DNA of 64,000 bases from Escherichia coli (GCF_024298765.1 NZ_CP101210.1), one strand, 5' to 3'; counted from the first letter of the stretch, positions 1,656-35,750 are shown. Program-made: numbers and translations. Notes: generated by a model from the sequence alone, not told the origin.

Positions 1656-1661
1656 TAGCAC

Positions 1662-11282: not shown

Positions 11283-11306
11283 TTAATTACCAACCCTTCA
11301 ACCCCG

Positions 11307-12554: not shown

Positions 12555-12606
12555 TTTTATGATTTTTATTTAAAATATTAATAACGTGATTGTCCGTGCT
12601 TTTGCA

Positions 12607-19252: not shown

Positions 19253-21620
19253 TGCCGGTTGTTTCCGGAAGGTGCGGCAAAATACGGAAATGATGATACC
19301 CCCGGCCCTGCATGCTCACCTGCAGAGCGTGTTCGTCGTCATCATACTGAGCCATGACGGATGTCTTAAGGGCATCCTGTCATTGCTGAGCTGGCATGCT
19401 GCGGTACATGCCTCACCCTGGTGACAATAAGTACATGGCGACAGCACTCCCTGCACCGCAAAAGAGATGTACACGGCCGGATGTTATGGCTGAATGTTTC
19501 TTCGTCAGATATTCAGGAACAGTTGTAGTAACGAATTTTACCGATCTCTGTACACGGCCGGACGCCGTCAGTGTATACGGGCGGACGTTCCATGCTGCAT
19601 GACTACATCCGGCCCGGATGTCAATGAGTCCGTCAGGAACGCTTCGCTTCGAAACCCGGCCTGGATACCAGCGCCGGCACGCCGGGAAGAAGTTGATATG
19701 GTGGTTGCCGGACAACAGCGCTCCTGGATTGACTGCTGCATCACTCAACCACGCTGAATATCAAAGGAGAGCGTTACCGATTAAAAGAGAAACGGAAAGC
19801 TGTGGTGATGACCCAAAACAACACGACAATCAGTGAGGATGGAATGGTGAAAATCAGACTGCATCAGTGTAGAAAATATACTGGCTGGCATGAAAATGGC
19901 CCGGCTCGTGGCGTTGACATATTCTCTCCTGAGCATCCTGAATGACTGCAGTTGCTGTGGAAAAGTAAGCAGTCTCCACCCACGGCACCACTTAACAGAC
20001 ATTCAGTAACTCACCCCAGACTTTCTATAACGCTTATCGGTGCACTGAAAACAGGAGAGTGCGCTTAAAACCGCAGACCGCATTGCGGGTGTTACTGCAT
20101 GACAGCCTGGCGGTATTGTGAAATGTCGGCAGGAACCGATGTCTGCGCAGGGGGAACTTCCGTGATCGGGATAAGTGCAGAAGAAATCAGATCACGACGT
20201 AAACCTGCAGTGCCTGACGCTGCAAGTGGCATTAACCATGGGACGTTGCCGATCCCGGATTGCGGAAACAGGAGCACTATTTTCTGCCGCGGGGAGTACA
20301 TCTGGCAGTAAATCCGGCTCGCTCATCTGACCGTCTCTCTCCCGGAAAAGACCAGAAATGAGATCGTCACCTCAACAGCAGGGAAGATGTCTTGACAGAC
20401 TGGTTATATTGCATACGATTTATGAAGAAAAAGACAGCAAATATGGAGGCTATAGCGGAGAACACCCTACGAAATTCCTGTGAAAAACGATTGAAAAAAC
20501 GATCAGATTCGATTCGTTTTTATATGCTTTTTGGGCACGTGGCGATGACGAACTGTTGCATGTGCAGAGGAGAATGCACCCGGAAGCACCAGAATCATCC
20601 AGAAAGGCAGAACGATTACGCATCAAACCAGGAGACAGCAATATCAGGATAACATACTGATTTAAAATGAATTTACAGCAATACGTGAAAACATTTTTTA
20701 CTTAAAGGAGACAGATGCGCTGAAGACAGTGCAGGTATTTTTATATAAAAATGAGAAGGTTACGGGATGTCTATCCAGCACACTATGACCGGAGAATATC
20801 AGTCAGGCTTAAAAAGACAATAAATACAGTGAGTTAAATACACAGAGAAAACGAAAACGTAGTATCAGAGGGTACATCTTACAACAGAGACTGAATTTCC
20901 GGTTTTTCATAACCGGCACATTCCGGAAAGAGCAGGCTAACCGGAGGCTTTCTGACACCAGTCCCTGGCAGTTTAATCTGTACATCATGTACGGATGTTT
21001 TGTTCGCATTTTTAAAATCGGCAAAAATGCGAGAAGAGCAGCTATATTATGGATGAACTGAAAAGTGCCCGGGAGCAACAAAAAAGGCGTGATGAACGTG
21101 CTGATGGTTCCGTTCCGCTGAAACTGTCCGGAAAAATCCACAAACAGCCTGAAAGTATTGCCCGAAGTCGTGGTGCCCCCCAAAAAAACTGTTGAATGAA
21201 ATGATTGAGCTGGCGTACCAGGATTTTGTGGCAAATGAGCAGCACAAGACTCGGAGTTAAAGACTGCAGGGCCCCGGTTACCAATTCTGCAGCATACACA
21301 ACGAATGTATCCGGCTCTTACCTGTGAGGGGCACGAAAATTATACATTGAGCATGAGTGGATAATCCCGGGTGAGAGTCTCCCGTTTTACACTATTCACT
21401 AAAGGTGAGGCATATCATTCAGTCTCTCTGAATTCTTCATTTCAGTAACTTCAGCTACCTTCGTTTCATCTCCCCCACGAACCGGGGCCGCAGCTTGTTG
21501 TATCAATACCAAATTGTTGGTCATTACTGTCCTGTATCACTGGGCTGGCAAGTGAACTGAAATCCGCACCTTAATATTCTGACTGGCTGCGTACATTCAT
21601 GGCATGAAGCGGCCGGAACG

Positions 21621-21656
21621 GCTGAGCTGAAGGTCCGTTGTGAGCGAACAGCGGAC
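21621..21656. repeat. GC-rich hairpin repeat R1 (type B)
   Basis: gctgagctgaaggtccgttgtgagcgaacagcggac. The stem is GTCCG.../...CGGAC. It matches 27385-27417 at about 36 of 40 positions. Confidence 0.7.
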
Positions 21657-21699
21657 ATTCACTACACATGGTTCAAACATGAACCGGAGCTTTATTGTC

Positions 21700-22010
21700 T
21701 AGCTGTCAGTGTACTGCGATTTACCCGCTCGGTTGTCCAGAAAATCGGTCTGAAATCCAGTCATTAAAGGGCCTTAGCCTGACATTAAGCAACTTGGTAG
21801 GCGGATAGATAATAGAAATAGGAATGCGCAGGTCTGTCATGTTGCCTAGAACGGTGACAAGCTGTCCGGTGCGAAATCATTCCGGCAGCGACAGGCTCAT
21901 GTGTCAGCCCGACGCCCAGACCGTCAACGAGCATGTGGATCTGCGAGGCGTTATCGTTCGCAGCGATGTTAAAACGAACAATCTGCTCATCTTCTAGAAG
22001 CACAAGTGCT
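21700..22010 (-). pseudogene. Possible LysR-family C-terminal remnant
   Basis: Minus-strand translation gives RFNIAANDNASQIHMLVDGLGVGLTHEPVAAG, then in another frame GQLVTVLGNMTDLRIPISIIYPPTKLL. This resembles the effector-domain end of a LysR regulator. No N-terminal HTH is present. Confidence 0.3.
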
Positions 22011-22095
22011 TTAATGACATTAAGGCGGTCTATATGTTGCATTACAGACTTCCTATTGATCTTTACCTGAGGCTGAAGCAACCACGTTAATCCGA

Positions 22096-22863
22096 CTATT
22101 TTTCGATTGCACCATCCACTATCACCATCGATCTTCCCTGAGCACAACGTTCAACTCTCCCGCGTACGCCGTATACCTGCGCAAGGCTCTCTGCATGGAT
22201 CACCGTTTGCGGGTCGCCGCTGTCGATAAGTTTCCCCTCTTTCAGCATGATGACCTGGGCGGCATGCCGCAGTGCGATATTGATATCGTGTAAGACGACC
22301 AGCGTAACCATATTGCGTCTTCGCGTTTCGCGCGATACAACATCCATCACATGGAACTGATAATTGAGATCCAGCGCGCTCAGTGGTTCATCCAGCAATA
22401 ATAATGCGGGGCGGCGAATAAGCGACTGTGCAAGCCCCACCAGCTGCTTCTGACCGCCGGACAGGCTATCGAGGTAGTTCATTGCCAGATGTGCGATGCC
22501 TAGCTCTTCGAGCAGCGCTATAGCCTGCGCCTGATTTTGCCCGGCGCCGGAGGCGCGCTGGGCGACAACCACCGACTCCAGCACCTGTAAATGCACGCCC
22601 TGCGGCAGGGACTGCGGCAGGAACACAACTTTTTCAGCCCGACGAGCAAACGGCAGCGATAAGAGATTCTCTTCATTCAGCCAGGCTTCGCCACTGGCGC
22701 GATTTAGCCCGGCCAGGGCGCGCAGTAGCGTTGATTTACCGCAGCCATTAGGCCCCAGCAGTACAGTGACTTCGCCGCGCGGCAGCGTAGAAATCGACAG
22801 ATGCTCAATAATCCGCCGTTTGCCGTAACCGGCGCACAGCGCATTAATCGTAAGCCCGCTCAT
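22096..22863 (-). CDS. ABC transporter ATP-binding protein (iron-chelate type, fbp-like locus)
   Basis: 255 aa with Walker A GPNGCGKST, signature LSGGQKQ and Walker B LLLLDEPLSALD. A 4-nt overlap links it to the permease gene. Confidence 0.85.
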   Translation of the reverse strand: MSGLTINALCAGYGKRRIIEHLSISTLPRGEVTVLLGPNGCGKSTLLRALAGLNRASGEAWLNEENLLSLPFARRAEKVVFLPQSLPQGVHLQVLESVVVAQRASGAGQNQAQAIALLEELGIAHLAMNYLDSLSGGQKQLVGLAQSLIRRPALLLLDEPLSALDLNYQFHVMDVVSRETRRRNMVTLVVLHDINIALRHAAQVIMLKEGKLIDSGDPQTVIHAESLAQVYGVRGRVERCAQGRSMVIVDGAIEK

Positions 22864-23918
22864 GACATACTCCCTCGATGACGCATTACAATGCTCAGAA
22901 AGAACGGAACGCCTACCAGCGAGGTAACAATTCCTACCGGTAAAATGACACCGGGAATGATGTTCTTCGACGCTACCGAGGCCAGCGATAGCACCAGCCC
23001 ACCGATAAGGATGCTTCCGGGCAAATAAAAGCGATGATCTTCTCCCAGCAACAGGCGGGAAATATGCGGTGCAACCAGGCCAATAAAGCCAATTGGCCCC
23101 ACAAACGCAACCGAAAGGGCCGCCAGCAGGCTGATGCGCAGCAGGGAACCCAGGCGCAAACGGCGAACATCAATGCCAAAACTCATCGCCCGCTCTTCGC
23201 CGAGGCGTAGCGCGGTAAGCTGCCAGGCACGACGCAGCGACCAGGGTAAAACAATCGCCATCGCCGCCGCCAGCACCGCCAGTTTCTCCCATGATGCGCG
23301 AGCCAGGCTGCCCATCGTCCAGAACACCAGGCCCTGCAAAGTATCTTCATCGGCGACAAACTGCATAATGGACACCAGCGCATTGAAGGTAAACACCAGC
23401 GCAATCCCAAACAGCACAACGCCCGACGTCGGCACGCGCGTCCAGCGGGTCAGACTATCGAGCAGCAGGGCGGACAGGAGCGCAAAAAGAAAAGCGTTTG
23501 CCGGTATAAACCCGCTTTCGGGAACGCCGGGAATACCGATGCCCAGAACAATCGCCAGCGCTGCGCCAAAGGCCGCCGCCGACGAAACGCCAAGCGTAAA
23601 CGGGCTGGCGAGGGAGTTATTCAGAATAGTTTGCATCTCTGCCCCGGCCAAACCCAGCGCCATTCCTACCAGGAGCGCCATCAGCGCATAGGGCAAACGG
23701 ATGTCCCAAACGATAACCCGCATGCCGTTAGTCGCCCCGGACGGATGCATCAAAGTCTTTATCAGCGAATGTAAAGGGAGCCCTGAGGGGCCGAGGGTGA
23801 AATCGAGCAGCAGCGAAGCAATGATAGCGATAAAAATAACCGCCAGTATTACCAGACGCTGGCGAAAAAGCTGGCGATAGCGGTTCTCGACCGACAGCGT
23901 ACTTTCCAATACAGTCAT
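22860..23918 (-). CDS. FecCD/BtuC-family ABC permease
   Basis: 352 aa, highly hydrophobic with about 9-10 TM segments. Typical iron-siderophore/B12 permease pattern. Confidence 0.85.
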   Translation of the reverse strand: MTVLESTLSVENRYRQLFRQRLVILAVIFIAIIASLLLDFTLGPSGLPLHSLIKTLMHPSGATNGMRVIVWDIRLPYALMALLVGMALGLAGAEMQTILNNSLASPFTLGVSSAAAFGAALAIVLGIGIPGVPESGFIPANAFLFALLSALLLDSLTRWTRVPTSGVVLFGIALVFTFNALVSIMQFVADEDTLQGLVFWTMGSLARASWEKLAVLAAAMAIVLPWSLRRAWQLTALRLGEERAMSFGIDVRRLRLGSLLRISLLAALSVAFVGPIGFIGLVAPHISRLLLGEDHRFYLPGSILIGGLVLSLASVASKNIIPGVILPVGIVTSLVGVPFFLSIVMRHRGSMS

Positions 23919-23936
23919 GGTTTTTCACAGCCTCCG

Positions 23937-24929
23937 TTAGCGCGGCGGATTGAGCACATCGCTCATCTGCGCATCGCTTAACGTCAGGCCAAAGAACTGC
24001 CGATAAAACTCACGCGTCTCTTTGCGTATATCCACATCAGCAAATCGCGCAGGATAAAGCGTTTTCGCCAGCCACAAAAATTGCAGCGCCTCTTCGCTGG
24101 TTTCACGGCACCACCAGAACATTCCTTTCGGATTAACGTAAACGCGATGATGAATGACCGCGTCCACGCTTGCCCACTGCGGAGAACTCAGAATGGCATC
24201 CGCGTCGCGCTTGTTCATCGCGATGATAACCGCCGGATTGGCAGTGACAATTTTCTCCAGCGCGACTTCACCCGAACGATTTTGTTGATGCTCGCCAAAC
24301 CAATTTTCAGCGATATTTTTGCCGCCGGCCAGGTCAATCCAGTCCTGGTTTAGCGAGGGTCTACCGGTGGTGGTCAGCGGATTGCCCATACTGTGATAGA
24401 GCGACACGCGCTGTGACGCAGGAAGATCTTTCAGGCGCCCGGTGACCAGGGCCACGTTGCGATCGAAGTAGCGTTGATAGGCGAGCGCTTTTTGCTGCGC
24501 ATCGGGCCCCAGCACCGCTGCCGTTTGCTGTACGCGCTGCGTTAACGCCCGCAGTGAATTCGCCTCAAACGCCAGCACCTGCACCCCAGCCTGTTTCAGC
24601 AACGCCTGTTGAGGCACTACCATATTCTGCGGTACAAAAAGCATATCGACCCCCAGCGCGATAATCTGTTCGGGATTGATTTCATGCCCGCTGTTTACGC
24701 TAACTGCTGCGACTTTCTCTATGCGCGGCAGGCTCTGGCGAAACAGGGGGATCCTTTTTGCAATCATCGAGGTTCCGACAATGTTATCGCCGTACCCCAG
24801 CATGGCAATAATGGTATTTTGCGCCGGCCACGGTGACGCGATACGCACCTCCTTGTGCGTATTTTCTGCGTGCAGGCTGGCCGCCAGCAGCAGCGCCAGC
24901 AGCGGAAATAAACGGGAGAGTTTCATCAT
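23937..24929 (-). CDS. Periplasmic iron-chelate-binding protein (type III SBP)
   Basis: 330 aa with signal peptide MMKLSRLFPLLALLLAASLHA. It lies between the receptor and permease genes. Confidence 0.75.
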   Translation of the reverse strand: MMKLSRLFPLLALLLAASLHAENTHKEVRIASPWPAQNTIIAMLGYGDNIVGTSMIAKRIPLFRQSLPRIEKVAAVSVNSGHEINPEQIIALGVDMLFVPQNMVVPQQALLKQAGVQVLAFEANSLRALTQRVQQTAAVLGPDAQQKALAYQRYFDRNVALVTGRLKDLPASQRVSLYHSMGNPLTTTGRPSLNQDWIDLAGGKNIAENWFGEHQQNRSGEVALEKIVTANPAVIIAMNKRDADAILSSPQWASVDAVIHHRVYVNPKGMFWWCRETSEEALQFLWLAKTLYPARFADVDIRKETREFYRQFFGLTLSDAQMSDVLNPPR

Positions 24930-24936
24930 TTATCCA

Positions 24937-27102
24937 TCAGAAATCGAAGGTGACGGATGCACGCACTTCGCGGCCGCCGCCGATAAACGCACTTGGGGAA
25001 CCGTTATCGCCATCGGTACCCGATGGGAAGATAGAAGCCCAGTAATGTTTATCAAACACGTTGTTTACCACCACGCGGAAAGTGGTTGGGACGTTGCTCA
25101 CTTTCGTGGTGTAACGCGTTCCCAAATCCCATGTGGTATAGCTGCTGGCGTAAGAGGTGTTGGTATCGTTCGCCGCGCGTTTGCCCGTATAATGGACGTT
25201 AGCGCTGTAAACCCATTCCGGTATGGACGGCAAACTGTATTCCGCCAACAGATTGGCCTGCACTTTCGGCACGCCGACAACCTGTTTATTGCTGGTTGAG
25301 GCATTCGCCGTATCTTTCAGTTTCGGGTCGAGGAAGGTCACGCCGCTGTAAATATTCAGCCCCTGCCACACATTCCCGGCAGCGGTTAACTCAAGGCCGT
25401 TGTTAACCTGGTTACCCTGCTCTTTATACACGTTATCCGTATCAAGATAGGCAAACGGACGTTCCAGTCGGAACAGCGCGGCGCCTAGATTCATCTCGCC
25501 GATGTCCGATTTTAGCCCCACTTCATACTGCTTGCTGCGATACGGGTTTAGCGTTTGACCGGCATTTTTTACGCTCTCATCCGTCGGTGCGGTACCGCCC
25601 TGCTCCAGCGAATCGGCATAGCTAACGTAGGCCATTGTGTTAGGGGTAATTTTATACATCAGCGCGGCGTTCGGACTTAAACCATTTTCATCAACCTGGT
25701 TCGTTTGATTACCGTGCTTATCGTAGTTTTTAGTCTGCAGCCAGCTCTGGCTGAGATAGAACATTGCCGACCACTGCGGCGTAAATGTCACCGTATCGCC
25801 GAGCGTAACGCTCTGCTGAGTATTTACGCTGGAGCGGTATCGCGGCCCGCCGGTGCGGATTTTGCCATCGCCCTGCTCATCTATCGCATCCGGGTGATAC
25901 ATATTTGTTGTACCCCAGCTATAGCTGGAACCTGTTCCTTTGGCACTATAAAGCGACCAGACATATCCCGTGGTAGAAAGTGACAGATCGTGGCCGATAG
26001 AGCCGGTATCAATATGACCATTCAGCCCGGCGGTGTTGCTCAGGACGCGAAAACGTCCGGCAGCGGTGGAATCCTTCATCGAACGAGAGATATCGCCCTG
26101 ATTGTTGAGTATTTTACTGGAAACACTACGCATCGCGCGGTCAGCCTGCTGCCAGCCCACGCCAGCGTTCATGGACCAGTCGTCGTTAAAGTAGTGGATC
26201 AGGCGAGTGCTGATGGTATCGGTAGTGAGGTCGTTGCCCGCAGTGCTGAGCGCCAGATTTTTGTCCTTCGGATTCGGCGCAGACGGCAGTTTGACGTTCG
26301 GCCCATAGTTAAAGCTACCGACATAGCCTTTCTGGATAAATTCGTAATGGCTGGCGTCGAGCTGTAGCTGAGTGCCCGGCTGAATATTCCAGTCGAGCGC
26401 AACGGAAACGAGTTTGCGACGCAGCGTGCTGTCATCCACATTGCCTTCCCCTTCCTGATCAAGCAGGTTCACGCGATAGCCAAACCGTTTGTTTTCATCA
26501 AAATGGCCACCCAGATCGGCATGGCCGGTAAACGCACTGCGGCTTTGATAGCCCAGCGTCACTTTACGCAGCGTCTCTTCGGTTGGGCGCTTCGCCACGA
26601 AATTAAACTGCCCTGCTGGGCTCGCCGGGCCGTACAGCGCGCCGGTCAAACTGTTAAGCACATCCATGCGCTCAAGCATTTCCACCGGAAACGCGGTTGT
26701 TGAAACGATATTCAGCCCGTCCAGACGGCTGTTGGCCACCACGCTGCCCTGCATCCCCCGACTTTGCGGACGCCCGACATCCATTCCACCGCGCGCCTGC
26801 ATTTGCGTACTGGGAGAGTATTTCAGCATCTCGCTGACGCTTTGCGCCTGCTGATTTTCAATCATCTCTTTAGTTACAGTGGTGCTGGAATATGGTGTTT
26901 CGATCCAGGATTTCGTTCCCAGCGGGCCGACATCTATATCGTTCGTTTTGAAACCGGCACCGGCGGCAGAATCGGTGGTGTCGGCGGCGGTGTTGCCCGT
27001 GACAATCATTTCATCTTCAGAAGTAGACGAGGCATGAGCATGAAGCGGTATGAAAGACGCTAATGCTGGCAAAAGCGCAGCGAAAGTTATTTGAGTTTTC
27101 AT
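24937..27102 (-). CDS. TonB-dependent outer-membrane receptor
   Basis: 721 aa with a signal peptide, a TonB-box-like DEMIVTG, a plug domain, a beta-barrel and a terminal ...VTFDF. First gene of a 4-gene uptake operon like the fbp locus reported in the CFT073 aspV island. Confidence 0.85.
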   Translation of the reverse strand: MKTQITFAALLPALASFIPLHAHASSTSEDEMIVTGNTAADTTDSAAGAGFKTNDIDVGPLGTKSWIETPYSSTTVTKEMIENQQAQSVSEMLKYSPSTQMQARGGMDVGRPQSRGMQGSVVANSRLDGLNIVSTTAFPVEMLERMDVLNSLTGALYGPASPAGQFNFVAKRPTEETLRKVTLGYQSRSAFTGHADLGGHFDENKRFGYRVNLLDQEGEGNVDDSTLRRKLVSVALDWNIQPGTQLQLDASHYEFIQKGYVGSFNYGPNVKLPSAPNPKDKNLALSTAGNDLTTDTISTRLIHYFNDDWSMNAGVGWQQADRAMRSVSSKILNNQGDISRSMKDSTAAGRFRVLSNTAGLNGHIDTGSIGHDLSLSTTGYVWSLYSAKGTGSSYSWGTTNMYHPDAIDEQGDGKIRTGGPRYRSSVNTQQSVTLGDTVTFTPQWSAMFYLSQSWLQTKNYDKHGNQTNQVDENGLSPNAALMYKITPNTMAYVSYADSLEQGGTAPTDESVKNAGQTLNPYRSKQYEVGLKSDIGEMNLGAALFRLERPFAYLDTDNVYKEQGNQVNNGLELTAAGNVWQGLNIYSGVTFLDPKLKDTANASTSNKQVVGVPKVQANLLAEYSLPSIPEWVYSANVHYTGKRAANDTNTSYASSYTTWDLGTRYTTKVSNVPTTFRVVVNNVFDKHYWASIFPSGTDGDNGSPSAFIGGGREVRASVTFDF

Positions 27103-27110
27103 GAATCACT

Positions 27111-27141
27111 GATCGTTATGTAAATATTTATATTACGATCG
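27111..27141. promoter_or_regulatory. 31-bp AT-rich imperfect palindrome upstream of the receptor gene (candidate Fur-type operator)
   Basis: gatcgttatgtaaatatttatattacgatcg has symmetric GATCGT.A / T.ACGATC arms around an AT core, 9 bp from the start codon. No match to the Fur consensus was verified. Confidence 0.25.
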
Positions 27142-27352
27142 GTGCATAGGCAAAATTATGATCCAGATCACACGTGAATGTAAGTTATTTACAAATTACG
27201 CTAACCTTCTGTCTCCGCTCTTTGCAGCATAAAAGTATGGCGGCGCGTTGTTGAAAGCAGGAGCGGCCGGGTTGTCAGAAAGCTGGTTTGGACGCAAGTA
27301 ATATATAACAACTCTGATTACCGCATACTGTCAGGACAGTATCTACTTGAGC

Positions 27353-27417
27353 GTCCGCCTTTGGCACAGAGCGGACGATATCACTGAGCTGAAGGTCCGC
27401 TGAGAGCGAGGAGCGGA
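27353..27417. repeat. Composite hairpin repeat R2 (type A + type B)
   Basis: gtccgcctttggcacagagcggac (27353-27376), followed by ctgagctgaaggtccgctgagagcgaggagcgga (to 27417). Confidence 0.7.
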
Positions 27418-27584
27418 AGTAAGCATGTATCTGCTAATGCGAAAAATCACTAACGAAACATTGGATCCCCATTGTTGCCGATCTTTAGTGGCGTTCAAGA
27501 TTAGCCCCAATCCTGATTATCATTTGATTACACTGACTGAAATGATATAAAACCTAATTATCTGATATTTGTAGGGGTTTAGTA

Positions 27585-28394
27585 ATGTCACTTCCTGTTC
27601 CTTTTGGTGCAATTGTTACAGTAGTGAAGAAATGCTGGTCTACTCTTACCCAGATAATGCTGATAAAAACTTATCAACTCTCACATGAGCGCTGGGCAGT
27701 GAGACACAGGCTAGGGGCGAGCTGGCATTCCTTAGGGAATTATTTGGAGTACAGTCTACGATTTGCTCAGTTGACAGATAAAGAACCTCGTTGTTCACGT
27801 ATTGCTTTCAGAAGCAAAGAGGAACGACTGCAACAAGTTGAACTTGTTTTTGAAGCCATTGGCAGTGGCTTACGCTACCAAGAAACACTATGCATTCATG
27901 ATGTAAATAACTCACCGATAATATTAACGCTTTCAAATATTCCTACACTTGATGTACTTATTCTAGATGATGGATTCGCATTTACGGTTGAACAGTACCA
28001 GTTAAAATATTGCACGATAAAATTAATGACTGGTGAAAGTATATCTATTGACAATTCGCCCAAATATTCGCTAATGCAAAACTGGTGTCTCAATGATACA
28101 TGGAAACGGCGTTGGGGTATCATCTGGAACTGTAATGCAATTGAATGTGCCCGAAGGCGTATTGCTGAATATTGGAAATGGGGCTTTTGTCTGCCGTTAG
28201 TGGGACGCCCCCCGTTATATTCACCATCGCGAAAAGGTATTCATCTGTTTGAAGCAAAACCGTTACGCTGGTTTATGACACGCCCATGGTGTCTGAATAT
28301 CCAGTTTTGGACGGCAATTTGGTCAGGACTGTTTATTCTCAGCGATGAGAATGTCTTGCAATGGCGCTGGAAAGAGCCACCACAACAAGACTAA
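27585..28394 (+). CDS. Hypothetical protein (Trp/Cys-rich C-terminal half)
   Basis: 269-aa ORF in AT-rich DNA, bounded by hairpin repeats R2 and R3. No family recognised. Confidence 0.5.
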   Translation: MSLPVPFGAIVTVVKKCWSTLTQIMLIKTYQLSHERWAVRHRLGASWHSLGNYLEYSLRFAQLTDKEPRCSRIAFRSKEERLQQVELVFEAIGSGLRYQETLCIHDVNNSPIILTLSNIPTLDVLILDDGFAFTVEQYQLKYCTIKLMTGESISIDNSPKYSLMQNWCLNDTWKRRWGIIWNCNAIECARRRIAEYWKWGFCLPLVGRPPLYSPSRKGIHLFEAKPLRWFMTRPWCLNIQFWTAIWSGLFILSDENVLQWRWKEPPQQD

Positions 28395-28408
28395 CTTTCA
28401 CGAAGGCC

Positions 28409-28432
28409 GTCCGCTCTGAGCGAGGAGCGGAC
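28409..28432. repeat. Hairpin repeat R3 (type B)
   Basis: gtccgctctgagcgaggagcggac has a perfect 8-bp stem GTCCGCTC/GAGCGGAC and an 8-nt loop. It lies between convergent ORFs. Confidence 0.75.
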
Positions 28433-28511
28433 CTCAGTGCTGGTTAGATTAACTAGTCTAATTGTGACTACCTAATTTGAAACGATATAAAAATGGTATG
28501 ATACATGATCA

Positions 28512-29249
28512 CTAATCTTTATCTGGAATATCTCTCGCATCGTAATAATCAATCCCAAGTCCAAAGCTTAACTCAAGCCCCTCAGGACCTCCGTGGATAT
28601 CGCCAACCCCAAATGTATTTGGAGCATTATTATTTCTGAATTTTTCAAGATCATTTTTATTTGGAGGCGATTTGTCGTCATTAGAGAGATCTGGAAGTGG
28701 ATCTAACTCAAAATAATCAACTCCAGCAGGGTTATAGGCAAGGTAAAAATTTCTATAGTTGCCAGGATTTCCTAAATAATGCCCTTCTTCATATTGATAG
28801 AACTTCGAAGAATAGCTCGACTGTAAATAATCAATATCACTTCCAAAATCTTTGAACTTATGTCCAAGGGTTTTTCTCAGATATGGTACTTCAGGATGAA
28901 AATTCTCATCCTTGCTGGTTACGGAATAGAGTATCACTGTGTTATTATTATCATAAACCACTTGCAGATAGAACTTTTTGAAAGAGTAAATATACTCATG
29001 AACCCTCCCATCCTCAGAATGTTCTTCCTTCACGGGAGGGCCAAAAATTGACTCGATGTACTTTATTGACGCTCCGGTGTAAATCACATGAAGATTATCC
29101 TCTGCTTTTTTTTGCAAAAAATTATCTGCGATATGTTGATATAAATCAAACACTCCGTTCAATGCAACAAAATATCCAAGAACAGCAAGAATACCACTCA
29201 AAAAAACAGTAATTAATGATTTTTTAAGTTTTTTAGGGGGATGTGACAT
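28512..29249 (-). CDS. Hypothetical N-terminally membrane-anchored protein
   Basis: 245 aa with one TM helix (LITVFLSGILAVLGYFVAL) followed by a Tyr/Asn-rich soluble domain. AT-rich codon usage. Confidence 0.55.
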   Translation of the reverse strand: MSHPPKKLKKSLITVFLSGILAVLGYFVALNGVFDLYQHIADNFLQKKAEDNLHVIYTGASIKYIESIFGPPVKEEHSEDGRVHEYIYSFKKFYLQVVYDNNNTVILYSVTSKDENFHPEVPYLRKTLGHKFKDFGSDIDYLQSSYSSKFYQYEEGHYLGNPGNYRNFYLAYNPAGVDYFELDPLPDLSNDDKSPPNKNDLEKFRNNNAPNTFGVGDIHGGPEGLELSFGLGIDYYDARDIPDKD

Positions 29250-29434
29250 AGTTCCTCTCTTTTTGTTTTTTAATTTTTTTGGAGTGTATCATGATTTCTC
29301 TCTTATTTTTTCAAAATTCTATTTATTTCTGAATGCAAAGTAAAACGCTGACATGCAAAAAAGTCATTCTTATTTAAGATTAAGTCAAAAATTTATCGAA
29401 AGACATTCTATTAATCTTACATGAATAGAGCAAC

Positions 29435-29455
29435 GTCCGCATCTGGCACAGGACT
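29435..29455. repeat. Hairpin repeat R4 (degenerate type A)
   Basis: gtccgcatctggcacaggact shares GTCCGC-N3-TGGCACAG with R2a and R6, but the right arm is eroded. Confidence 0.5.
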
Positions 29456-29476
29456 GCTGTTGCAGCCCTGGCAACC

Positions 29477-30079
29477 TTAGACTTCAATCGATTCAGAGAT
29501 CTCTAACGCATCATCGACTTCAATGCCCAGATAACGGACTGTGCTTTCCAGTTTCTTATGGCCTAACAGAAGTTGGATCACCCTGAGATTCTTAGTTTTC
29601 TTGTAAATCAGGTAAGGTTTTGTTCTTCTCAAGGAATGTGTACTGTAAAGCGAATCTTCGAGACCAAGTTTTGCTACCCACCCATGAAAAATTCGGTTGT
29701 ATTGCCGGGTTGATATGTGTTGGTTAGTACCGACCCGAGATCGGAACAAATAGTCTTTACTGCGTAAATTGCCAAGCTTTATCAATGCAGAAACAGCTTC
29801 TCTTGTCCCTTTGGTTATCTCAAATTGGACAGGGCTGCCGGTTTTCTGTTGTAGAACCGTAGCTCTGCTTGAAACAGAGCTACCATATGCAACATCAGAT
29901 ACTTTGAGTTTGACTAGATCACAGCCTCGAAGCTTACTGTCCAAGGCCATGTTGAACAGAGCTAAATCGCGTGTTTTACCTTCCAGTTCAAGTCGGATTC
30001 GGATACCCCAGATATGAGATATCTGAAGTGGTCTTTTTTGGCCTATGATACGGTCTTTGTTCCACGGTGACGTGTTCAT
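29477..30079 (-). CDS. Small (200 aa) tyrosine recombinase / integrase-family protein
   Basis: Contains ...DSKLRGCDLVKLKVSDV...TGSPVQFEIT...YSTHSLRRTKPYLIYKKTKNLRVIQLLLGHKKLESTVRYLGIEVDD. The R...HxLR...GH...Y catalytic pattern is present. The ATG at 30079 sits 8 nt after an aggag, whereas the ORF track begins at a TTG at 30085. Confidence 0.8.
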   Translation of the reverse strand: MNTSPWNKDRIIGQKRPLQISHIWGIRIRLELEGKTRDLALFNMALDSKLRGCDLVKLKVSDVAYGSSVSSRATVLQQKTGSPVQFEITKGTREAVSALIKLGNLRSKDYLFRSRVGTNQHISTRQYNRIFHGWVAKLGLEDSLYSTHSLRRTKPYLIYKKTKNLRVIQLLLGHKKLESTVRYLGIEVDDALEISESIEV

Positions 30080-30080
30080 A

Positions 30081-30111
30081 CTCAAATCTCCTGCAATGTG
30101 GGAGATTTGAG
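30081..30111 (-). promoter_or_regulatory. Perfect 11-bp-stem hairpin covering the recombinase Shine-Dalgarno
   Basis: ctcaaatctcc-tgcaatgtg-ggagatttgag. On the coding strand the aggag SD is inside the 3' arm. Confidence 0.5.
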
Positions 30112-30118
30112 TATGGTT

Positions 30119-30143
30119 GTCCTTATGAGCGAGGCGCGGAAGC
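30119..30143. repeat. Hairpin repeat R5 (degenerate type B)
   Basis: gtccttatgagcgaggcgcggaagc resembles gtccgctgagagcgaggagcggaagt of R2. Confidence 0.45.
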
Positions 30144-30195
30144 TCACTTTAGGGCAATCTAATTCACATGTCAGAGGATTTATAAAAAGAGAATA

Positions 30196-30441
30196 GTGCA
30201 GATTTTAGGGATACTTACACTTGCTATGGCATACTTTTTGGGACCCCATCAGTTTAGGGATCTGAATCGCCACAGCTTTGGTAGGCACCTGCTTTATGGT
30301 CACGTGCACCCGAAGATCCTGCGGGTACGCATGGGTCACGAAAAGTACGAGTCTACAGAAGTTAATTTACGGTTTTTTGCGCTCGATGTGGCTGCCAGCT
30401 ACCAAGTCCAGTTTACACTGGATACAACTAACGCGCTGTAG
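30196..30441 (+). pseudogene. C-terminal remnant of a second tyrosine recombinase
   Basis: HQFRDLNRHSFGRHLLYGHVHPKILRVRMGHEKYESTEVNL resembles the H-x-x-R ... GH ... Y box of integrases, but it is degenerate and lacks the N-terminal domains. Confidence 0.45.
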
Positions 30442-30474
30442 CAACTGCGTGGTGGAAGCTGATTAAAGGAGATA

Positions 30475-31578
30475 ATGATGTTCGATGTTGACGATACTGC
30501 ACCCGATACTCCCGCCCCCCGTGAACTCAGTCAGGATGTGCAGGCGCTGATCAACAATGGTCTGGATTTTCTGGATAAAGCCCGTGAAGAGTTGGAGGCC
30601 TCGAAGCCGAAGTTCTCCGTCGTCAGTTTCTGGACTGCGGTCGAGATTTTACTGAAAGTTCCGCTGGCGCACGAACACTGGTCGTTGGTCTGCAGCCCGA
30701 AAAAGCCAATAAAAAAGCAGGCTTACCTAGCCGGTGATTTTCAGTCGGTGACCTACGAAGAAACCCGTGAAAGGCTTAAGGACGTACTTGAAAGACCCCT
30801 AGACAGAGAAACGGACAGTGCTTTTGATAAGGTCAGAAAGCACCGCAACCGCGTAGTTCATTTCTACCACCCCACTTTCACCGAGGCTGAACAACGTCAA
30901 ATACTCAAAGAACAAGCTGACGCCTGGTTTGCCCTGAACCGGTTATTAAGGGATGAATGGAAAGTTATCTTCGGTGTCAAACATAATTGGAAGCTGGCTT
31001 TCGGTGAAACTCGTCTGATTAGGGGAAACAAATTTTATGCCGAGGTGCGGTTTAAACAGGTTAAGCCTGAACTCGAGCAGCTCTCTGAAAAGAATATTCA
31101 AATCGGTAACTGCAATGAGTGCCATCAGCATGCGACGGTAACAGGGACTGAAACGACCGGTAATGAAAACCGTAAGCTTGAAGTTACGCGGTGTAAGGTT
31201 TGCACCAGTGCTGTAAGGCAAATTACCCTAGTTTGTCCAGACTGCGAAATACCTCAATTGCTACCTGAGGGAGATAGTGATTTTGAATGCGAACACTGCG
31301 ACTACACTTCGGATAGGTATAAACTGCTGGATGAGGAGTTGTTCCACAGTGTGGATGAACAGCTACTCTCCGTATTTCCTGCTGGATGTACCAATTGCAT
31401 GACTCCTGAAAGCGTATGTAAATTTGGAGACGGCTATCTTTGCACTCAGTGTTTCATCTATTACACCGAGCTTCATGTATGTGGTTGTTGCGGTCACCTG
31501 AGCGATAGCGTTCCTGAACTGAGCCATATCCGAGGATGTGAATTTTGTGATGGTGACCAACGTTATTTTGATGACTGA
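30475..31578 (+). CDS. HEPN-like (Rx4H) domain protein fused to an array of CxxC zinc ribbons
   Basis: 367 aa. The helical N-terminal half contains KVRKHRNRVVHFYH. The C-terminal half carries at least 12 Cys in CxxC pairs (CNECH, CKVC, CPDC, CEHC, CTNC, CTQC, CGCC, CEFC). A strong RBS aaaggag lies upstream. Confidence 0.6.
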   Translation: MMFDVDDTAPDTPAPRELSQDVQALINNGLDFLDKAREELEASKPKFSVVSFWTAVEILLKVPLAHEHWSLVCSPKKPIKKQAYLAGDFQSVTYEETRERLKDVLERPLDRETDSAFDKVRKHRNRVVHFYHPTFTEAEQRQILKEQADAWFALNRLLRDEWKVIFGVKHNWKLAFGETRLIRGNKFYAEVRFKQVKPELEQLSEKNIQIGNCNECHQHATVTGTETTGNENRKLEVTRCKVCTSAVRQITLVCPDCEIPQLLPEGDSDFECEHCDYTSDRYKLLDEELFHSVDEQLLSVFPAGCTNCMTPESVCKFGDGYLCTQCFIYYTELHVCGCCGHLSDSVPELSHIRGCEFCDGDQRYFDD

Positions 31579-31616
31579 ATTACCATACATAATCTAGGCT
31601 CTTCAGGGATGGGTTG

Positions 31617-31648
31617 GACAGTCCGCTCCTGGCACAGAGCGGACTGTC
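31617..31648. repeat. Hairpin repeat R6 (type A, best preserved)
   Basis: gacagtccgctc-ctggcaca-gagcggactgtc has a perfect 12-bp stem. It lies 39 bp after the stop of the HEPN-like gene. Confidence 0.75.
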
Positions 31649-31799
31649 AGATTAGATTCAGACCTGTACTCATTAGCTGATACAAATCAGCCACATATAC
31701 CTGCATTCCAAATAATTTCAGGCAGATATTATCTCCGTGAATCCCCCCGCCACCTTTCCGGTGCGCGGGGTTTTGTCTTTTTTCACCGGGAATACATGT

Positions 31800-32234
31800 A
31801 TGAATCCGTCTGATGCCATTGAGGCAATTGAAAAACCGCTCTCCTCCCTGCCTTACTCACTTTCCCGTCACATCCTGGAACATCTGCGCAAACTCACCAG
31901 CCACGAACCCGTGCCTGGCATTATGGGTAAAAGCGGGGCCGGTAAATCCTCACTCTGTAATGCACTGTTTCAGGGGGAGGTCACCCCGGTCAGTGCACTC
32001 ATGACAGCGCTTCCCGGACATGCCGCCATCCCTCTGATGACACGCCTGCAGGACGAACTGCGCACGGAGTCTGTCCGCACTCAGACCCGTGAACAGTTTA
32101 CCGGTGCGGTGGACCGGATATTTGACACGGCGGAGAGTGTCTGTGTTGCCTCTGTTGTCCGTACGGCCCTGCGCGCAGTTCGTGACACGGTGGTCTCTGT
32201 TGCCCGCGCGGTATGGAACTGGATTTTCTTCTGA
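31800..32234 (+). pseudogene. yeeP: YeeP/YkfA/YfjP-family GTPase with large internal in-frame deletion
   Basis: Translation reads MNPSDAIEAIEKPLSSLPYSLSRHILEHLRKLTSHEPV.GIMGKSGAGKSSLCNALFQGEVTPVS, joined directly to ALMTALPGHAAIPLMTRLQDELRTESVR...WNWIFF. The P-loop and C-terminus are kept and the G-domain core is missing. Confidence 0.8.
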
Positions 32235-32340
32235 ACCCGGTGGTGATGTACCAGGCTGTTGTTACAGATTTTTAACTCCATGAAAACACTATGCAAACGC
32301 AGCTATACCCGGGGTGTCCCCTTGCGTTGTGCTTCCCAAG

Positions 32341-32400
32341 TTAATAGAATACATCGATCGTTACTATCATATCGATCGTTATAAACGATCGTTTGTAGTA
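32341..32400 (+). promoter_or_regulatory. Triple-GATC repeat cluster upstream of the dynamin-like operon (candidate Dam-sensitive operator)
   Basis: ttaatagaatacatCGATCGTTActatcatatCGATCGTTAtaaaCGATCGTTtg. GATC sites are at 32356, 32374 and 32387, and the cluster ends ~62 nt before the ATG at 32452. Confidence 0.55.
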
Positions 32401-32451
32401 AATGACCTCCTCCGTGGTTGTCATGAAAATGCGTCTCAGGAAGGTTAAATA

Positions 32452-34848: not shown

Positions 34849-35750
34849 CTTCACCATTTATTCAACAAATTGCTGATAACCGGGTATGTCAGGTACTCAC
34901 CTGTCTTCCTGAAAAATTTGTGGTTGATTTCGCAAACGGAATCGATGTTGCACAGGAGCATATCCGCACGGCCAGAGAGCGCACGTTCTTCCGGCGTTTA
35001 AAAGAGGGACTGACCGGCGAAGGCGCTGCACGGCAGAATGCCATCAATGCTTCGCTTGCACAGGGCGTTGAGGCGTCCCTGCGCTGGCTGACGGAGCTGA
35101 CAACGTCACTTGCCACCACAAACTACGCGATTACCCGGGTAAACGACAGGGTCAGTTCACTGGTCAGTGATACTGCCAGGCTGGCGCATTATTCCGCAGA
35201 TACACGGGAGCAGTTACTCATCCTGGCCGATCAGGTTCACCATAAACTGAATCATCTTGAAGAAAAACTCCACCGTGTTGACCAGGTTCAGCGGGCGCAG
35301 TTACATCTTGAGCAGATATTCTCATGGTGGAGCGCCGGGCGATACGCGTCATTTTCCCCTGCCGGACGTTGTTATGTGGCACTTGAAGAGCTTCGCTGGG
35401 GCGCGTTTGGTGATGTGATACGTCAGGGCGAAACAGGCCAGGTTAACCAGCTACTGGATATTCTCAGACATAAAGCATTAACGCAGATGGCACAGGAGAG
35501 TGGCGGTAGTGCAACCGTGCGTCTGAACACTCTGGACTGGCTTGGTGGTCAGGGCCGGGAGCAGGCAGATAACGAGTGGCATGACGCGATTAACTGGCTG
35601 GGAGACTGGTGCAGTGAAGAGCAGCATCCGGTGATCTGGTCAACCACGCAGGCTGCAGAACACTTACCGGTTCGCATGCCTCGCCTCTGCTCTGCAGAAC
35701 GCCTCTCTGAAAGTATGGTCGATGAAATATTTCAGAAGGGGGCTGCATGA
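34845..35750 (+). CDS. RdcB (YjcZ)-like dynamin partner protein
   Basis: 301 aa, mostly helical. Its GTG start overlaps the dynamin stop (GTGA). The size and position match the yjdA-yjcZ (rdcA-rdcB) arrangement in K-12. The family call is from memory, not from alignment. Confidence 0.5.
   Translation: MTSPFIQQIADNRVCQVLTCLPEKFVVDFANGIDVAQEHIRTARERTFFRRLKEGLTGEGAARQNAINASLAQGVEASLRWLTELTTSLATTNYAITRVNDRVSSLVSDTARLAHYSADTREQLLILADQVHHKLNHLEEKLHRVDQVQRAQLHLEQIFSWWSAGRYASFSPAGRCYVALEELRWGAFGDVIRQGETGQVNQLLDILRHKALTQMAQESGGSATVRLNTLDWLGGQGREQADNEWHDAINWLGDWCSEEQHPVIWSTTQAAEHLPVRMPRLCSAERLSESMVDEIFQKGAA

What the first reader, a model, noticed from the sequence alone, without database searches (positions are those of the whole stretch)
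27353..31648. AT-rich block of orphan genes partitioned by a family of GC-rich hairpin repeats and carrying a 200-aa tyrosine recombinase: cassette-like architecture
Seen: every intergenic gap between the TonB receptor gene and the yeeP remnant contains a copy of one of two related hairpins built on the stem GTCCGC(TC)/(GA)GCGGAC. Type A is GTCCGC-N3-TGGCACAGAGCGGAC, found at 27353, 29435 (eroded) and 31621 (12-bp perfect stem). Type B is GAAGGTCCGCTGAGAGCGAGGAGCGGA, found at 27391, 28405 and 30119 (eroded), with a further copy at 21630. The units they delimit are single genes in either orientation: a 269-aa orphan, a 245-aa membrane-anchored orphan, the recombinase, and a recombinase fragment plus the HEPN/zinc-ribbon gene. 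These genes are visibly AT-rich compared with the repeats. Inference: the hairpins may be recombination sites (attC-like folded substrates) for the small recombinase. Alternatively they are a REP/MITE-like family that seeds module exchange in this island. Either way the modular layout is not explained by simple terminators, because R2 and R5 lie upstream of genes.
Basis: partly seen in the sequence, partly recalled or inferred. Interest (0 to 1): 0.6.

Follow-up and report, generated by a model that had tools for sequence, protein, structure and literature searches.

The report
Recombinase-linked exchangeable gene modules
The GC-rich "hairpins" are real recombination sites that divide this E. 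coli island into swappable gene modules, one of which encodes a small tyrosine recombinase that probably does the swapping. The same sites bound anti-phage cargo in P2-like and lambda-like prophages, so they offer a testable mechanism for how defence genes move between such elements.

Summary
Six sites lie at the stated coordinates and a seventh at 21633, and they fill every intergenic gap.

They are not REP-like. E. coli genomes that have them carry 1-6 copies, and fewer than half of 5426 genomes have any.

Strain comparisons show the sites are crossover points:
- An "empty" locus carries one hybrid site.
- Some strains lack exactly the recombinase + HEC-08 unit, or exactly the iron-uptake operon.
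- The same 2.2-kb unit (99% identical) sits in a prophage, at another chromosomal locus and on a Pantoea plasmid, and homology always ends at the sites.

Type B is type A inverted, with two changes in a 7-8 bp core (22/24 identity inverted, 18/24 direct). The two core types alternate, giving a grammar like Acinetobacter dif modules. The 200-aa recombinase gene is flanked by such sites in many proteobacterial genera.

The sites are already annotated as the "inverted repeats" flanking P2 Z/fun inserts (Nilsson et al. 2004). New here, as far as I could check, are three things: the link to a recombinase, the two-core alternating grammar, and the arrays in yeeP-type islands and lambdoid prophages. 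An attC-like folded substrate is not supported.

The parts
21600..21656 (+). Left edge of the array. It holds a degenerate a-core (TGGCATGA), a linker variant, and b-type site B0 (GTCCGTTG TGAGCGA ACA GCGGAC, 21633-21656).
   Evidence: In L002, L009 and L015 its left part is joined to other right parts. DNA fold z = -3.7.
21662..27352 (-). Cargo module 1, an iron-uptake operon: ABC ATPase, FecCD permease, binding protein and TonB-dependent receptor (22096-27102).
   Evidence: Annotation. The whole stretch between B0 and B1 is absent in L002, with the joint at the b core.
27353..27376 (-). Site A1 (a-type; on the + strand GTCCGC CTT TGGCACAG AGCGGAC).
   Evidence: Its left half is joined to the right half of A3 in the empty locus L001.
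27377..27394 (.). Linker of the 'empty' module between A1 and B1. With the adjoining arms it reads AGCGGACGATATCACTGAGCTGAAGGTCCGCTG.
   Evidence: The identical linker lies between an a site and a b site in L015 and L016, and a variant in L013 and at window 21608. It occupies the position that the recombinase module occupies between A2 and B3.
27395..27418 (+). Site B1 (b-type: GTCCGCTG AGAGCGA GGA GCGGAA).
   Evidence: Its right half is joined to other left halves in L002 and in prophage L006.
27585..28394 (+). 269-aa orphan gene. It forms a fused module with the next gene.
   Evidence: Searches found no family. It carries a premature stop in L002.
28409..28432 (+). Site B2 (b-type: GTCCGCTC TGAGCGA GGA GCGGAC). 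Its left arm looks like a truncated linker.
28512..29249 (-). ETEC_3214-family gene (245 aa, N-terminal membrane anchor).
   Evidence: NCBIfam NF043066, E = 2e-53.
29435..29458 (-). Site A2 (a-type). It pairs a conserved arm and core (GTCCGC ATC TGGCACAG) with the recombinase module's own degenerate arm.
   Evidence: The same recombinase-side flank is joined to 7 different cargo-side flanks in 7 contexts. It does not fold as a hairpin.
29451..29468 (-). Small GC hairpin between the recombinase stop codon and the a core.
   Evidence: A hairpin of differing sequence sits at this position in most relatives.
29477..30079 (-). 200-aa tyrosine recombinase, essentially a catalytic domain only.
   Evidence: Homologues of 61-97% identity occur across gamma- and beta-proteobacteria.
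30076..30116 (-). 5'-UTR hairpin that buries the Shine-Dalgarno sequence and AUG of the recombinase gene.
   Evidence: 15-bp stem, -32.9 kcal/mol, z = -5.3. In 77 relatives' 5' UTRs, folded one at a time, the predicted SD is fully paired in 50; the stem sequences differ between clades.
30119..30142 (+). Site B3 (b-type, with a degenerate recombinase-side arm: GTCCTTA TGAGCGA GGC GCGGAA).
   Evidence: The same arrangement lies upstream of the recombinase in relatives.
30196..30441 (+). 81-aa ORF resembling the C-terminus of another tyrosine recombinase; probably a remnant.
   Evidence: PF00589, E = 0.03 only.
30475..31578 (+). Cargo gene: an N-terminal R-x4-H (HEPN-like) motif region plus a Cys-rich C-terminus. 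It matches the candidate defence family HEC-08.
   Evidence: PADLOC HEC-08 E = 1e-173 and DUF3644 E = 3e-71; PHROG 37794.
31617..31648 (-). Site A3 (a-type, 12-bp perfect inverted arms around CTGGCACA). It is the right edge of the array, abutting the yeeP-type backbone.
   Evidence: The backbone-side flank is joined to 5 different cargo flanks in other strains.
31800..32235 (+). yeeP-like GTPase remnant, the start of the conserved island backbone.
   Evidence: This flank matches in most of the 4289 genomes that match the query at all.

Best explanation
Window 21.6-31.65 kb is an array of exchangeable gene modules separated by about 24-bp site-specific recombination sites.

Site structure. Each site has roughly 8-bp inverted arms (GTCCGCTC / GAGCGGAC) around an asymmetric 7-8 bp core. 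There are two core types, a (TGTGCCA) and b (TGAGCGA). They lie in opposite orientation and alternate along the array.

Module structure. Cargo modules are bounded by one b end and one a end, with good arms facing inward. They alternate with short 'slot' modules, each of which is either a 33-nt linker or the recombinase gene.

Inferred mechanism. The 200-aa tyrosine recombinase binds the arms and exchanges strands within the core between sites of the same core type.
- Exchange between two direct a sites (or two b sites) excises or integrates a pair of modules, for example recombinase + HEC-08, as a circle.
- One a exchange followed by one b exchange between two DNA molecules replaces a single cargo. 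This would be a natural form of recombinase-mediated cassette exchange.
- The two-base difference between the cores would keep a and b from recombining with each other.

Translation of the recombinase is held down by a hairpin that buries its ribosome-binding site.

Shown versus inferred. Shown here: the sites, their grammar, crossovers confined to the core region, the linkage between recombinase and sites, and the defence-type cargo. Inferred: that this recombinase is the catalyst, double-stranded substrates, heterospecificity of a and b, and the circular intermediate.
For: 1. The sites are non-random and confined to the array.

2. Homology between strains stops at the sites:
- The empty locus L001 has one site, and the two flank alignments overlap by exactly its 24 nt.
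- L002 lacks A2-A3 and B0-B1.
- The 2.2-kb recombinase + HEC-08 unit is 99.1-99.8% identical at the ychF locus (L013), in a lambdoid prophage (L006) and on a Pantoea plasmid (L107). Homology begins at A2 and ends in or at A3.

3. In 62 sites from 17 loci, flanks recombine combinatorially, and the switch always falls between arm+core and the next 3 nt.

4. The same phage flanks hold different cargo: a 232-aa gene in L099 and the window block in L006. That same 232-aa cargo also sits in the P2 Z slot.

5. A against inverted B gives 22/24 identity; direct gives 18/24 (sequences).

6. The recombinase is flanked by these sites in every E. coli context. Among 81 relatives, 29 have a site within 90 nt downstream of the stop (0.2 expected) and 31 have an inverted site within 170 nt upstream (0.15 expected). 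There are 13 linker-type composites (0 expected).

7. The core sequence changes with recombinase clade: GTGCCA in Enterobacterales, CGGCCA/CGACCC in Pseudomonas.

8. The catalytic residues are intact and invariant.

9. Cargo includes HEC-08, DRT type 1 and PD-T7-1.
Against: - No experiment or read-level evidence of recombination or of circles was available.
- Only 968 of 5426 genomes carry the recombinase, while 2439 carry a-type sites. Isolated P2-like phages carry sites but no recombinase. Action in trans or from past hosts must therefore be assumed.
- The site motif used for distant genera was derived partly from the same loci. It is found near only about 36-38% of the relatives.
- The recombinase-proximal arms are degenerate.
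- The protein has almost no core-binding domain, and the structure model was too poor to examine.
- Exact cleavage positions cannot be read from sequence, because arms and core are shared by the recombining partners.
Confidence: 0.7

Rival explanations
1. The sites are real recombination sites, but another enzyme acts on them: a host Xer-type recombinase or an unidentified phage or island recombinase. On this view the 200-aa recombinase is merely one more passenger module, or moves only itself.
For: Sites are more widespread than the recombinase: 2439 genomes against 968, and P2-like phages have sites without it. In the dif-module precedent the host XerC/D is the proposed catalyst.
Against: The sites show no resemblance to dif (11-6-11, GGTGCGCATAA-TGTATA-TTATGTTAAAT, quoted from memory). 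The recombinase gene keeps the same pair of inverted sites at fixed distances from its start and stop across distant genera, and the core co-varies with recombinase clade. That pattern is expected for an enzyme and its substrate, not for a passenger.
Confidence: 0.12
2. The enzyme and sites are the same, but the substrate is a folded single strand, like integron attC.
For: Several sites have perfect 8-12 bp inverted arms (A3 z = -5.3, B0 z = -3.7). A GC hairpin of varying sequence abuts the core downstream of the recombinase gene in many relatives. The enzyme is very small.
Against: A2 and B3 are recombinant joints present in every context, yet they do not fold (z = -0.4 and -0.1). Conservation lies in sequence (arm GCGGAC plus core), not structure alone. 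The arm-core-arm geometry (8-8-8) is that of ordinary double-stranded core sites. No attC R/L boxes are present.
Confidence: 0.1
3. The repeats serve mainly as regulatory or insulating palindromes. Modules would be exchanged by general or short-homology recombination across the 24-60 nt of shared sequence, with no dedicated recombinase.
For: Shared sequence sometimes extends beyond the 24-mer: the linker, and 18 nt (AGCGGACTGTCAGATTAG) shared by the P2 and yeeP backbones. Recent literature lists homologous or illegitimate recombination as possibilities for hotspot exchange.
Against: 24 nt is very short for RecA-dependent exchange. In all recombinant pairs the switch point lies between arm+core and the following 3 nt. 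A recombinase gene is embedded between the sites family-wide. None of the sites scores as a terminator.
Confidence: 0.06
4. The repeats belong to a REP/ERIC/BIME- or MITE-like dispersed family.
For: They are GC-rich intergenic palindromes. The 67-nt A1-linker-B1 unit superficially resembles a MITE.
Against: Genomes that carry them have 1-6 a-like and 1-3 b-like copies, and the copies are absent from more than half of 5426 genomes. All hits in the window lie in one array. There are no target-site duplications; the only duplicated sequence at filled versus empty loci is the site itself.
Confidence: 0.02

Closest known systems
Inverted repeats flanking the Z/fun insert of P2-like coliphages (Nilsson, Karlsson & Haggard-Ljungquist 2004, Mol Biol Evol 21:1; GenBank AJ512681-AJ512685)
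   Same: These are literally the same sites. In AJ512683 the 'left inverted repeat' contains GTCCGCTC TGTGCCA TGA GCGGAC, and the 'right inverted repeat' contains GTCTGT TTT TCGCTCA. Its 232-aa cargo also occurs between the same sites in a lambdoid prophage (86% identity over 1741 nt). [quoted passage not shown]
   Different: In the sources I could read, no recombinase is named and no core types or alternating grammar are described. They also do not mention arrays upstream of yeeP, the lambdoid slot, or the family outside enterobacteria. The 2004 paper itself is not in the library, so I cannot exclude that it discusses a candidate enzyme.
dif modules of Acinetobacter Rep_3/OrfX plasmids (pdif sites, XerC/XerD)
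   Same: Oriented sites alternate in direction, which gives two classes of module that must alternate. Modules are lost or gained in pairs between direct sites with matching spacers. Single modules are replaced through cointegrate formation and resolution. 'Empty' modules and fused modules exist (PMC13141974). All of these features are seen here.
   Different: Here the sites are unrelated to dif. A dedicated 200-aa recombinase is encoded inside one module class. Orientation is tied to two distinct cores. The hosts are chromosomal islands, prophages and megaplasmids of many Proteobacteria.
Integrons (IntI, attI, attC cassettes)
   Same: Both are tyrosine-recombinase-linked arrays of small gene cassettes, bounded by palindromic sites that are hybrids of neighbouring cassettes. 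Cargo is often anti-phage.
   Different: The recombinase is not IntI-like: TIGR02249 scores 15.9 bits against a cutoff of 265. There are no attC R/L boxes and no evidence for folded single-strand substrates. Cassettes lie in either orientation and are large enough to carry their own promoters. The recombinase is itself a cassette.
R64 shufflon (Rci recombinase, sfx sites)
   Same: Both have a 7-bp asymmetric core flanked by one conserved and one poorly conserved arm. The sfx core GTGCCAA (PMC4176322) nearly equals the a core (T)GTGCCA(A/G).
   Different: Rci is about 384 aa (from memory) and performs only inversions within one gene cluster. Here only insertions, deletions and replacements were seen. 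The listed rows of a tblastn against plasmids showed no feature annotated as a shufflon recombinase; this was not tested directly. The core resemblance may be coincidence.
Cre/lox or Flp/FRT recombinase-mediated cassette exchange with heterospecific spacers (an engineering method)
   Same: A cassette flanked by two sites with the same arms but incompatible spacers is swapped by two independent crossovers.
   Different: That is an artificial arrangement. Here the arrangement is natural, and the incompatibility of the a and b cores is inferred, not tested.

Membership tests
Tyrosine recombinase superfamily | Phage_integrase catalytic domain scoring above the curated threshold | tested here: met
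   PF00589: 69 bits against a cutoff of 27.1. Weak matches to XerA/XerC/XerD models and XerD structures.
Tyrosine recombinase superfamily | Catalytic R-K-H-R-H/W-Y residues | tested here: met
   R51, K79, H148, R151, H174 and Y183 are present and invariant in 30 homologues.
Integron | IntI-type integrase | tested here: not met
   TIGR02249: 15.9 bits against a cutoff of 265. The protein is 200 aa, where IntI is roughly 320 aa (size from memory).
Integron | attC sites with R''/L''-L'/R' boxes (RYYYAAC ... GTTRRRY), conserved in structure rather than sequence | tested here: not met
   The site sequences lack these boxes. Sequence is conserved rather than structure: A2 and B3 do not fold.
Integron | Cassettes mostly co-oriented and promoterless, read from Pc next to attI | tested here: not met
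   Cargo genes lie in both orientations relative to the sites.
dif modules | Sites are dif-like XerC/XerD binding sites (11-6-11) | tested here: not met
   The sites are roughly 8-8-8 (GTCCGCTC-TGTGCCAG-GAGCGGAC) and show no similarity to dif (direct reading; dif sequence from memory).
dif modules | Alternating site orientation, which gives two alternating module classes | tested here: met
   The b{cargo}a(slot)b{cargo}a pattern is seen in the window and in L015, L105, L107, P2 and the lambdoid slots.
dif modules | Gain or loss of module pairs between direct sites, and replacement of single modules | tested here: met
   L001, L002, L013 and L107 (pairs); L099 against L006, and L106 against L103 (replacement). 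These are inferred from comparisons, not observed as events.
Shufflon | Clustered inversions between inverted sites, catalysed by an Rci-type recombinase | tested here: inconclusive
   No inverted module arrangement appeared among 17 loci. The recombinase is half the size of Rci. Only the 7-bp core is similar.
REP / BIME / ERIC | Tens to hundreds of copies scattered through core intergenic regions | tested here: not met
   1-6 (a-like) and 1-3 (b-like) places per genome, in 2439 and 1099 of 5426 genomes.
Intrinsic terminators | GC stem followed by a T run | tested here: not met
   None of the A or B sites is called by the terminator scan.
P2 Z/fun inverted-repeat-bounded inserts | The same repeat sequences bounding foreign DNA | tested here: met
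   The site query hits the annotated 'left inverted repeat' of AJ512681/82/83/85, phage P2 itself and many P2-like phages.
MITE / IS-like transposon | Terminal inverted repeats plus target-site duplication at new insertion sites | tested here: not met
   Filled and empty loci differ only by duplication of the site itself. Junctions fall inside the site, not outside it.

The most novel reading that the evidence does not exclude
A very widespread family of catalytic-domain-only tyrosine recombinases (more than 8000 90%-identity clusters across Proteobacteria) runs a previously unassigned module-exchange system. The system has two mutually incompatible core types in alternating orientation, which amounts to natural recombinase-mediated cassette exchange.

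It would shuttle anti-phage, iron-uptake and other cargo between the P2 Z/fun hotspot, lambdoid prophages, yeeP-type genomic islands and plasmids, including across genera. That would give the unexplained turnover of defence hotspots a concrete enzymatic mechanism.
Probability: 0.5. Interest if true: 0.85.

Novelty: new variant of a known kind. Interest (0 to 1): 0.72.

Why it matters
How defence systems hop between unrelated mobile elements is an openly stated gap. A 2022 paper on P2/P4 hotspots speculates about cos ends. A 2026 paper weighs transposons, homologous recombination and illegitimate recombination without a clear answer.

This locus supplies defined 24-bp sites, a candidate enzyme, a grammar that predicts which exchanges are allowed, and natural before-and-after examples. 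Together these make the question directly testable.

It would also be useful in two practical ways:
- The sites could serve as annotation markers for cargo boundaries in islands and prophages.
- A 200-aa recombinase with two orthogonal cores could become a compact cassette-exchange tool.

Tried and rejected
- Rfam scan of 21000-32500 at E <= 1: no match, so no known RNA motif and no tRNA.
- Full-text search for the site sequences: no papers.
- Concept searches for a described recombinase/cassette system: only integron, dif-module and shufflon literature.
- Pfam, NCBIfam, PADLOC and PHROGs on the 269-aa ORF: nothing.
- ETEC_3214: only its NCBIfam domain family and a sub-threshold Pfam hit.
- AlphaFold2 on the recombinase with a 30-sequence alignment of low diversity: mean pLDDT 46, unusable, so no fold search was run.
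- 6-mer enrichment around relatives' recombinase genes: only moderate signal. A regular-expression motif was needed, and it is partly circular for the downstream sites.
- Nilsson et al. 2004 and Odegrip et al. 2006 are not in the library, so prior claims are taken from GenBank annotations and from a review.
- A relationship to Rci was considered because of the shared GTGCCA core, but the searches run here gave no protein-level support for it (Rci itself was not compared directly).
- Reading the recombinase module as an IS-like transposon with terminal inverted repeats was considered and set aside, because junctions fall inside the sites and there are no target duplications.

Full report

Yes. 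GTCCGC-N12-GCGGAC occurs three times in the 64-kb window, at 27353, 28409 and 31621, against 0.07 expected from shuffles. The 14-mer GAGCGAGGAGCGGA, allowing up to 2 mismatches, marks 27404, 28418, 30127 and 21642, and matches 31622 on the opposite strand.

Every intergenic gap from the TonB receptor gene to the yeeP remnant holds a site. The genes between sites have GC 0.33-0.47 and the sites 0.61-0.72. None of the sites is called as an intrinsic terminator.

The 200-aa ORF is a tyrosine recombinase (PF00589, 69 bits) with R51, K79, H148, R151, H174 and Y183. The 367-aa gene matches the PADLOC candidate family HEC-08. The 245-aa gene is an ETEC_3214-family protein. The 'recombinase fragment' is only marginal (E = 0.03).

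**2. Are the repeats a ubiquitous family?**

No. A 35-nt a-type query finds 1-6 places (median 1) in 2439 of 5426 complete E. coli genomes. A b-type query finds 1-3 places in 1099 genomes. All hits shown are intergenic.

**3. Is the locus variable, and where are the joints?**

Only 206 genomes carry the whole 4.7-kb stretch, while 4289 match some part of it, mostly the yeeP flank.

- **L001 (strain SCU-306), empty.** The TonB receptor gene is followed by one site whose left half is A1 and whose right half is A3. The two flank alignments overlap by exactly its 24 nt.
- **L002, two precise losses.** It keeps the 269-aa and ETEC_3214 genes but lacks the recombinase + HEC-08 unit precisely between A2 and A3. 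It also lacks the iron-uptake operon precisely between the 21641 site and B1.
- **The 2.2-kb recombinase + HEC-08 unit travels.** It recurs at 99.1-99.8% identity next to a P4-type integrase at the ychF locus (L013), in a lambdoid prophage (L006), behind a dynamin-like gene in other islands (L003, L015, L105), and on the Pantoea ananatis plasmid pPANA10 (L107). On pPANA10 homology runs from window 29435 to 31636, that is from the A2 arm into the A3 core.

Across 62 sites in 17 loci there are 28 distinct flanks on one side of the core and 37 on the other, and they combine freely:

- the recombinase-side flank is joined to 7 different cargo flanks;
- the yeeP-side flank is joined to 5;
- the HEC-08 end is joined to 5 different backbones.

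The switch always lies between the 8-nt arm plus 7-nt core and the following three bases. The crossover region is therefore the 7-8 bp core, as expected for a tyrosine recombinase.

**4. What is the grammar?**

Aligned directly, A (GTCCGCTCCTGGCACAGAGCGGAC) and B (GTCCGCTCTGAGCGAGGAGCGGAC) share 18/24 bases. A against the reverse complement of B shares 22/24. So B is A inverted, with two core changes: TGTGCCA for a and TGAGCGA for b.

Along the + strand the window reads:

b(21641) {iron operon} a(27362) (33-nt linker) b(27403) {269 aa - b(28417) - ETEC_3214} a(29444) (recombinase) b(30126) {HEC-08} a(31630) backbone.

Cargo modules have a b end and an a end with good arms. 'Slot' modules between an a site and the next b site are either the linker or the recombinase gene. 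The linker is identical in the window, L015 and L016. The recombinase module's own arms are degenerate.

The 269-aa gene plus B2 looks like a fused module, because B2's left arm resembles a truncated linker.

The same b{cargo}a units occur in several other places:

- with DRT type 1 (L015) and PD-T7-1 (L016);
- with a ParA-containing cargo (L104);
- with an AAA ATPase in the tail-fibre/sheath slot of a P2-like prophage (L103);
- with a 232-aa gene in a lambdoid prophage slot (L099), where L006 instead carries the window's B1-to-A3 block between identical phage flanks;
- as a run of at least 10 sites on pPANA10.

**5. Is the recombinase linked to the sites?**

In every E. coli context the stop codon is followed by a small hairpin and then TGTGCCA-N3-GCGGAC. 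The start codon is preceded by an inverted b site.

The family is very large and conserved: more than 8000 clusters, at 61-97% identity across gamma- and beta-proteobacteria.

In 80 loci from other species the same layout recurs with clade-specific cores: GTGCCA / TCGCTC in Enterobacterales, and CGGCCA or CGACCC in Pseudomonas and relatives.

| Feature, using a regular-expression motif | Observed | Expected from shuffles |
|---|---|---|
| Genes with a site within 90 nt downstream | 29 of 81 | 0.2 |
| Genes with an inverted site within 170 nt upstream | 31 of 81 | 0.15 |
| Linker-type back-to-back composites | 13 | 0 |

The downstream count is partly circular, because the motif was read from those regions. 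The upstream and composite counts are not circular in that way.

This co-variation and fixed geometry are why I assign the reaction to this enzyme. That assignment is an inference, not a demonstration.

**6. Double-stranded site or folded hairpin?**

A3 and the 21.6-kb copy fold strongly as single-stranded DNA (z = -5.3 and -3.7). A2 and B3 are the joints present wherever the recombinase is, and they do not fold (z = -0.4 and -0.1). B2 and A1-B1 are unremarkable.

The arm-core-arm geometry, the conserved sequence and the requirement for a shared core fit ordinary double-stranded core sites. An attC-like mechanism is not excluded but has no specific support.

**7. Regulation**

The recombinase 5' UTR forms a 15-bp hairpin that buries the Shine-Dalgarno sequence and the AUG (-32.9 kcal/mol, z = -5.3). 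When 77 relatives' UTRs are folded one at a time, the SD is fully paired in 50, and the stems differ in sequence between clades.

This would keep the recombinase off when it is read through from outside, as is known for some IS transposases (general knowledge).

**8. What is already known?**

The site query hits GenBank entries AJ512681-85 ('P2-EC48/53/58/67 proviral Z-region'), where these sequences are annotated as 'left inverted repeat'; AJ512683 also carries a 'right inverted repeat'. It also hits phage P2 itself and many P2-like phages.

These entries belong to Nilsson, Karlsson & Haggard-Ljungquist 2004. [quoted passage not shown]

So the repeats, and the idea that they mediate site-specific exchange, are prior art. 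I could not read the paper itself.

In what I could read, no recombinase is assigned. Recent hotspot papers treat the exchange mechanism as unknown and do not mention these repeats. Isolated phage genomes carry the sites but essentially never the recombinase, which may be why the link was missed.

The architecture most resembles Acinetobacter dif modules: alternating C and D modules, gain and loss in pairs, and single-module replacement through cointegrates. The sites here are different, and the enzyme is dedicated and module-encoded. The a core nearly equals the 7-bp sfx core GTGCCAA of the R64 shufflon, which may be coincidental.

**9. Verdict**

The REP/MITE and terminator readings are rejected, and the attC-like detail is unsupported.

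Apparently new here are:

- the recombinase assignment;
- the two-core alternating grammar;
- the arrays in yeeP-type islands and lambdoid prophages;
- the breadth of the family.

The existence of the repeats and their role in P2/bacterium exchange is already known.

I rate confidence at about 0.9 that these are crossover sites bounding exchangeable modules, and about 0.7 that the 200-aa recombinase catalyses the exchange.

Noticed in passing
window 30076-30116 (minus strand): A 15-bp hairpin buries the Shine-Dalgarno sequence and start codon of the recombinase gene (z = -5.3). Equivalent stems of differing sequence occur in most relatives. No Rfam family matches.
   Followed up: partly
window 27824-27898 (minus strand): ARAGORN calls a tRNA-Gly(GCC) inside the 269-aa orphan ORF. 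Rfam at E <= 1 finds no tRNA there, and the RefSeq annotation has none. It is probably a false positive.
   Followed up: partly
L107 (Pantoea ananatis LMG 5342 plasmid pPANA10, 124282-138881): The plasmid carries a recombinase protein 100% identical to the window's and a 99.5% identical 2.2-kb recombinase + HEC-08 unit. The unit is embedded in a run of at least 10 a/b sites with metabolic cargo (dihydrodipicolinate-synthase-family and GNAT genes). This points to recent inter-genus movement.
   Followed up: partly
L017 (E. coli plasmid p1 of strain cS33a), about 8000-8700: A 92%-identical recombinase with its a and b sites sits between IS26 copies on a multiresistance plasmid, next to CTX-M-15, TEM-1 and sul2. 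The cargo there (DUF2254) is truncated.
   Followed up: no
window 27362-27418; L015 10202-10260; L016 10637-10700: The 33-nt linker between an a site and a b site is identical in three unrelated contexts. It occupies the slot the recombinase gene fills elsewhere. It may be a minimal 'empty' module or a deletion remnant of a recombinase module.
   Followed up: partly
all a-type sites, e.g. window 29444-29451: The a core (T)GTGCCA(A/G) is nearly the 7-bp core GTGCCAA of the R64 shufflon sfx sites. Like sfx, it is paired with one well-conserved arm and one looser arm. No protein-level link to Rci was found.
   Followed up: partly
window 30196-30441: An 81-aa ORF at the start of the HEC-08 cargo has an H-x-x-R ... 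G-H ... Y-like C-terminal pattern and a marginal PF00589 match (E = 0.03). It is possibly the relic of a different recombinase.
   Followed up: partly
L105 7265-9017; L003 6202-7565: In some arrays two successive a sites bracket a cargo with no recognisable b site between them. These may be fused or decayed modules, as described for dif 'CD' modules.
   Followed up: no
window 31800-34850: In a genome whose sequence is 100% identical to the window over 27100-31800, the yeeP-like GTPase and the dynamin-family gene downstream of the array are annotated as frameshifted pseudogenes. That record shows 2-bp coordinate offsets after about 32235, so small indels exist there.
   Followed up: no
window 1-13000 compared with L004: The genome that matches the array at 100% (FCI1) has different genes from the window in the first 13 kb or so of the island. 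The island is therefore mosaic beyond the array.
   Followed up: no
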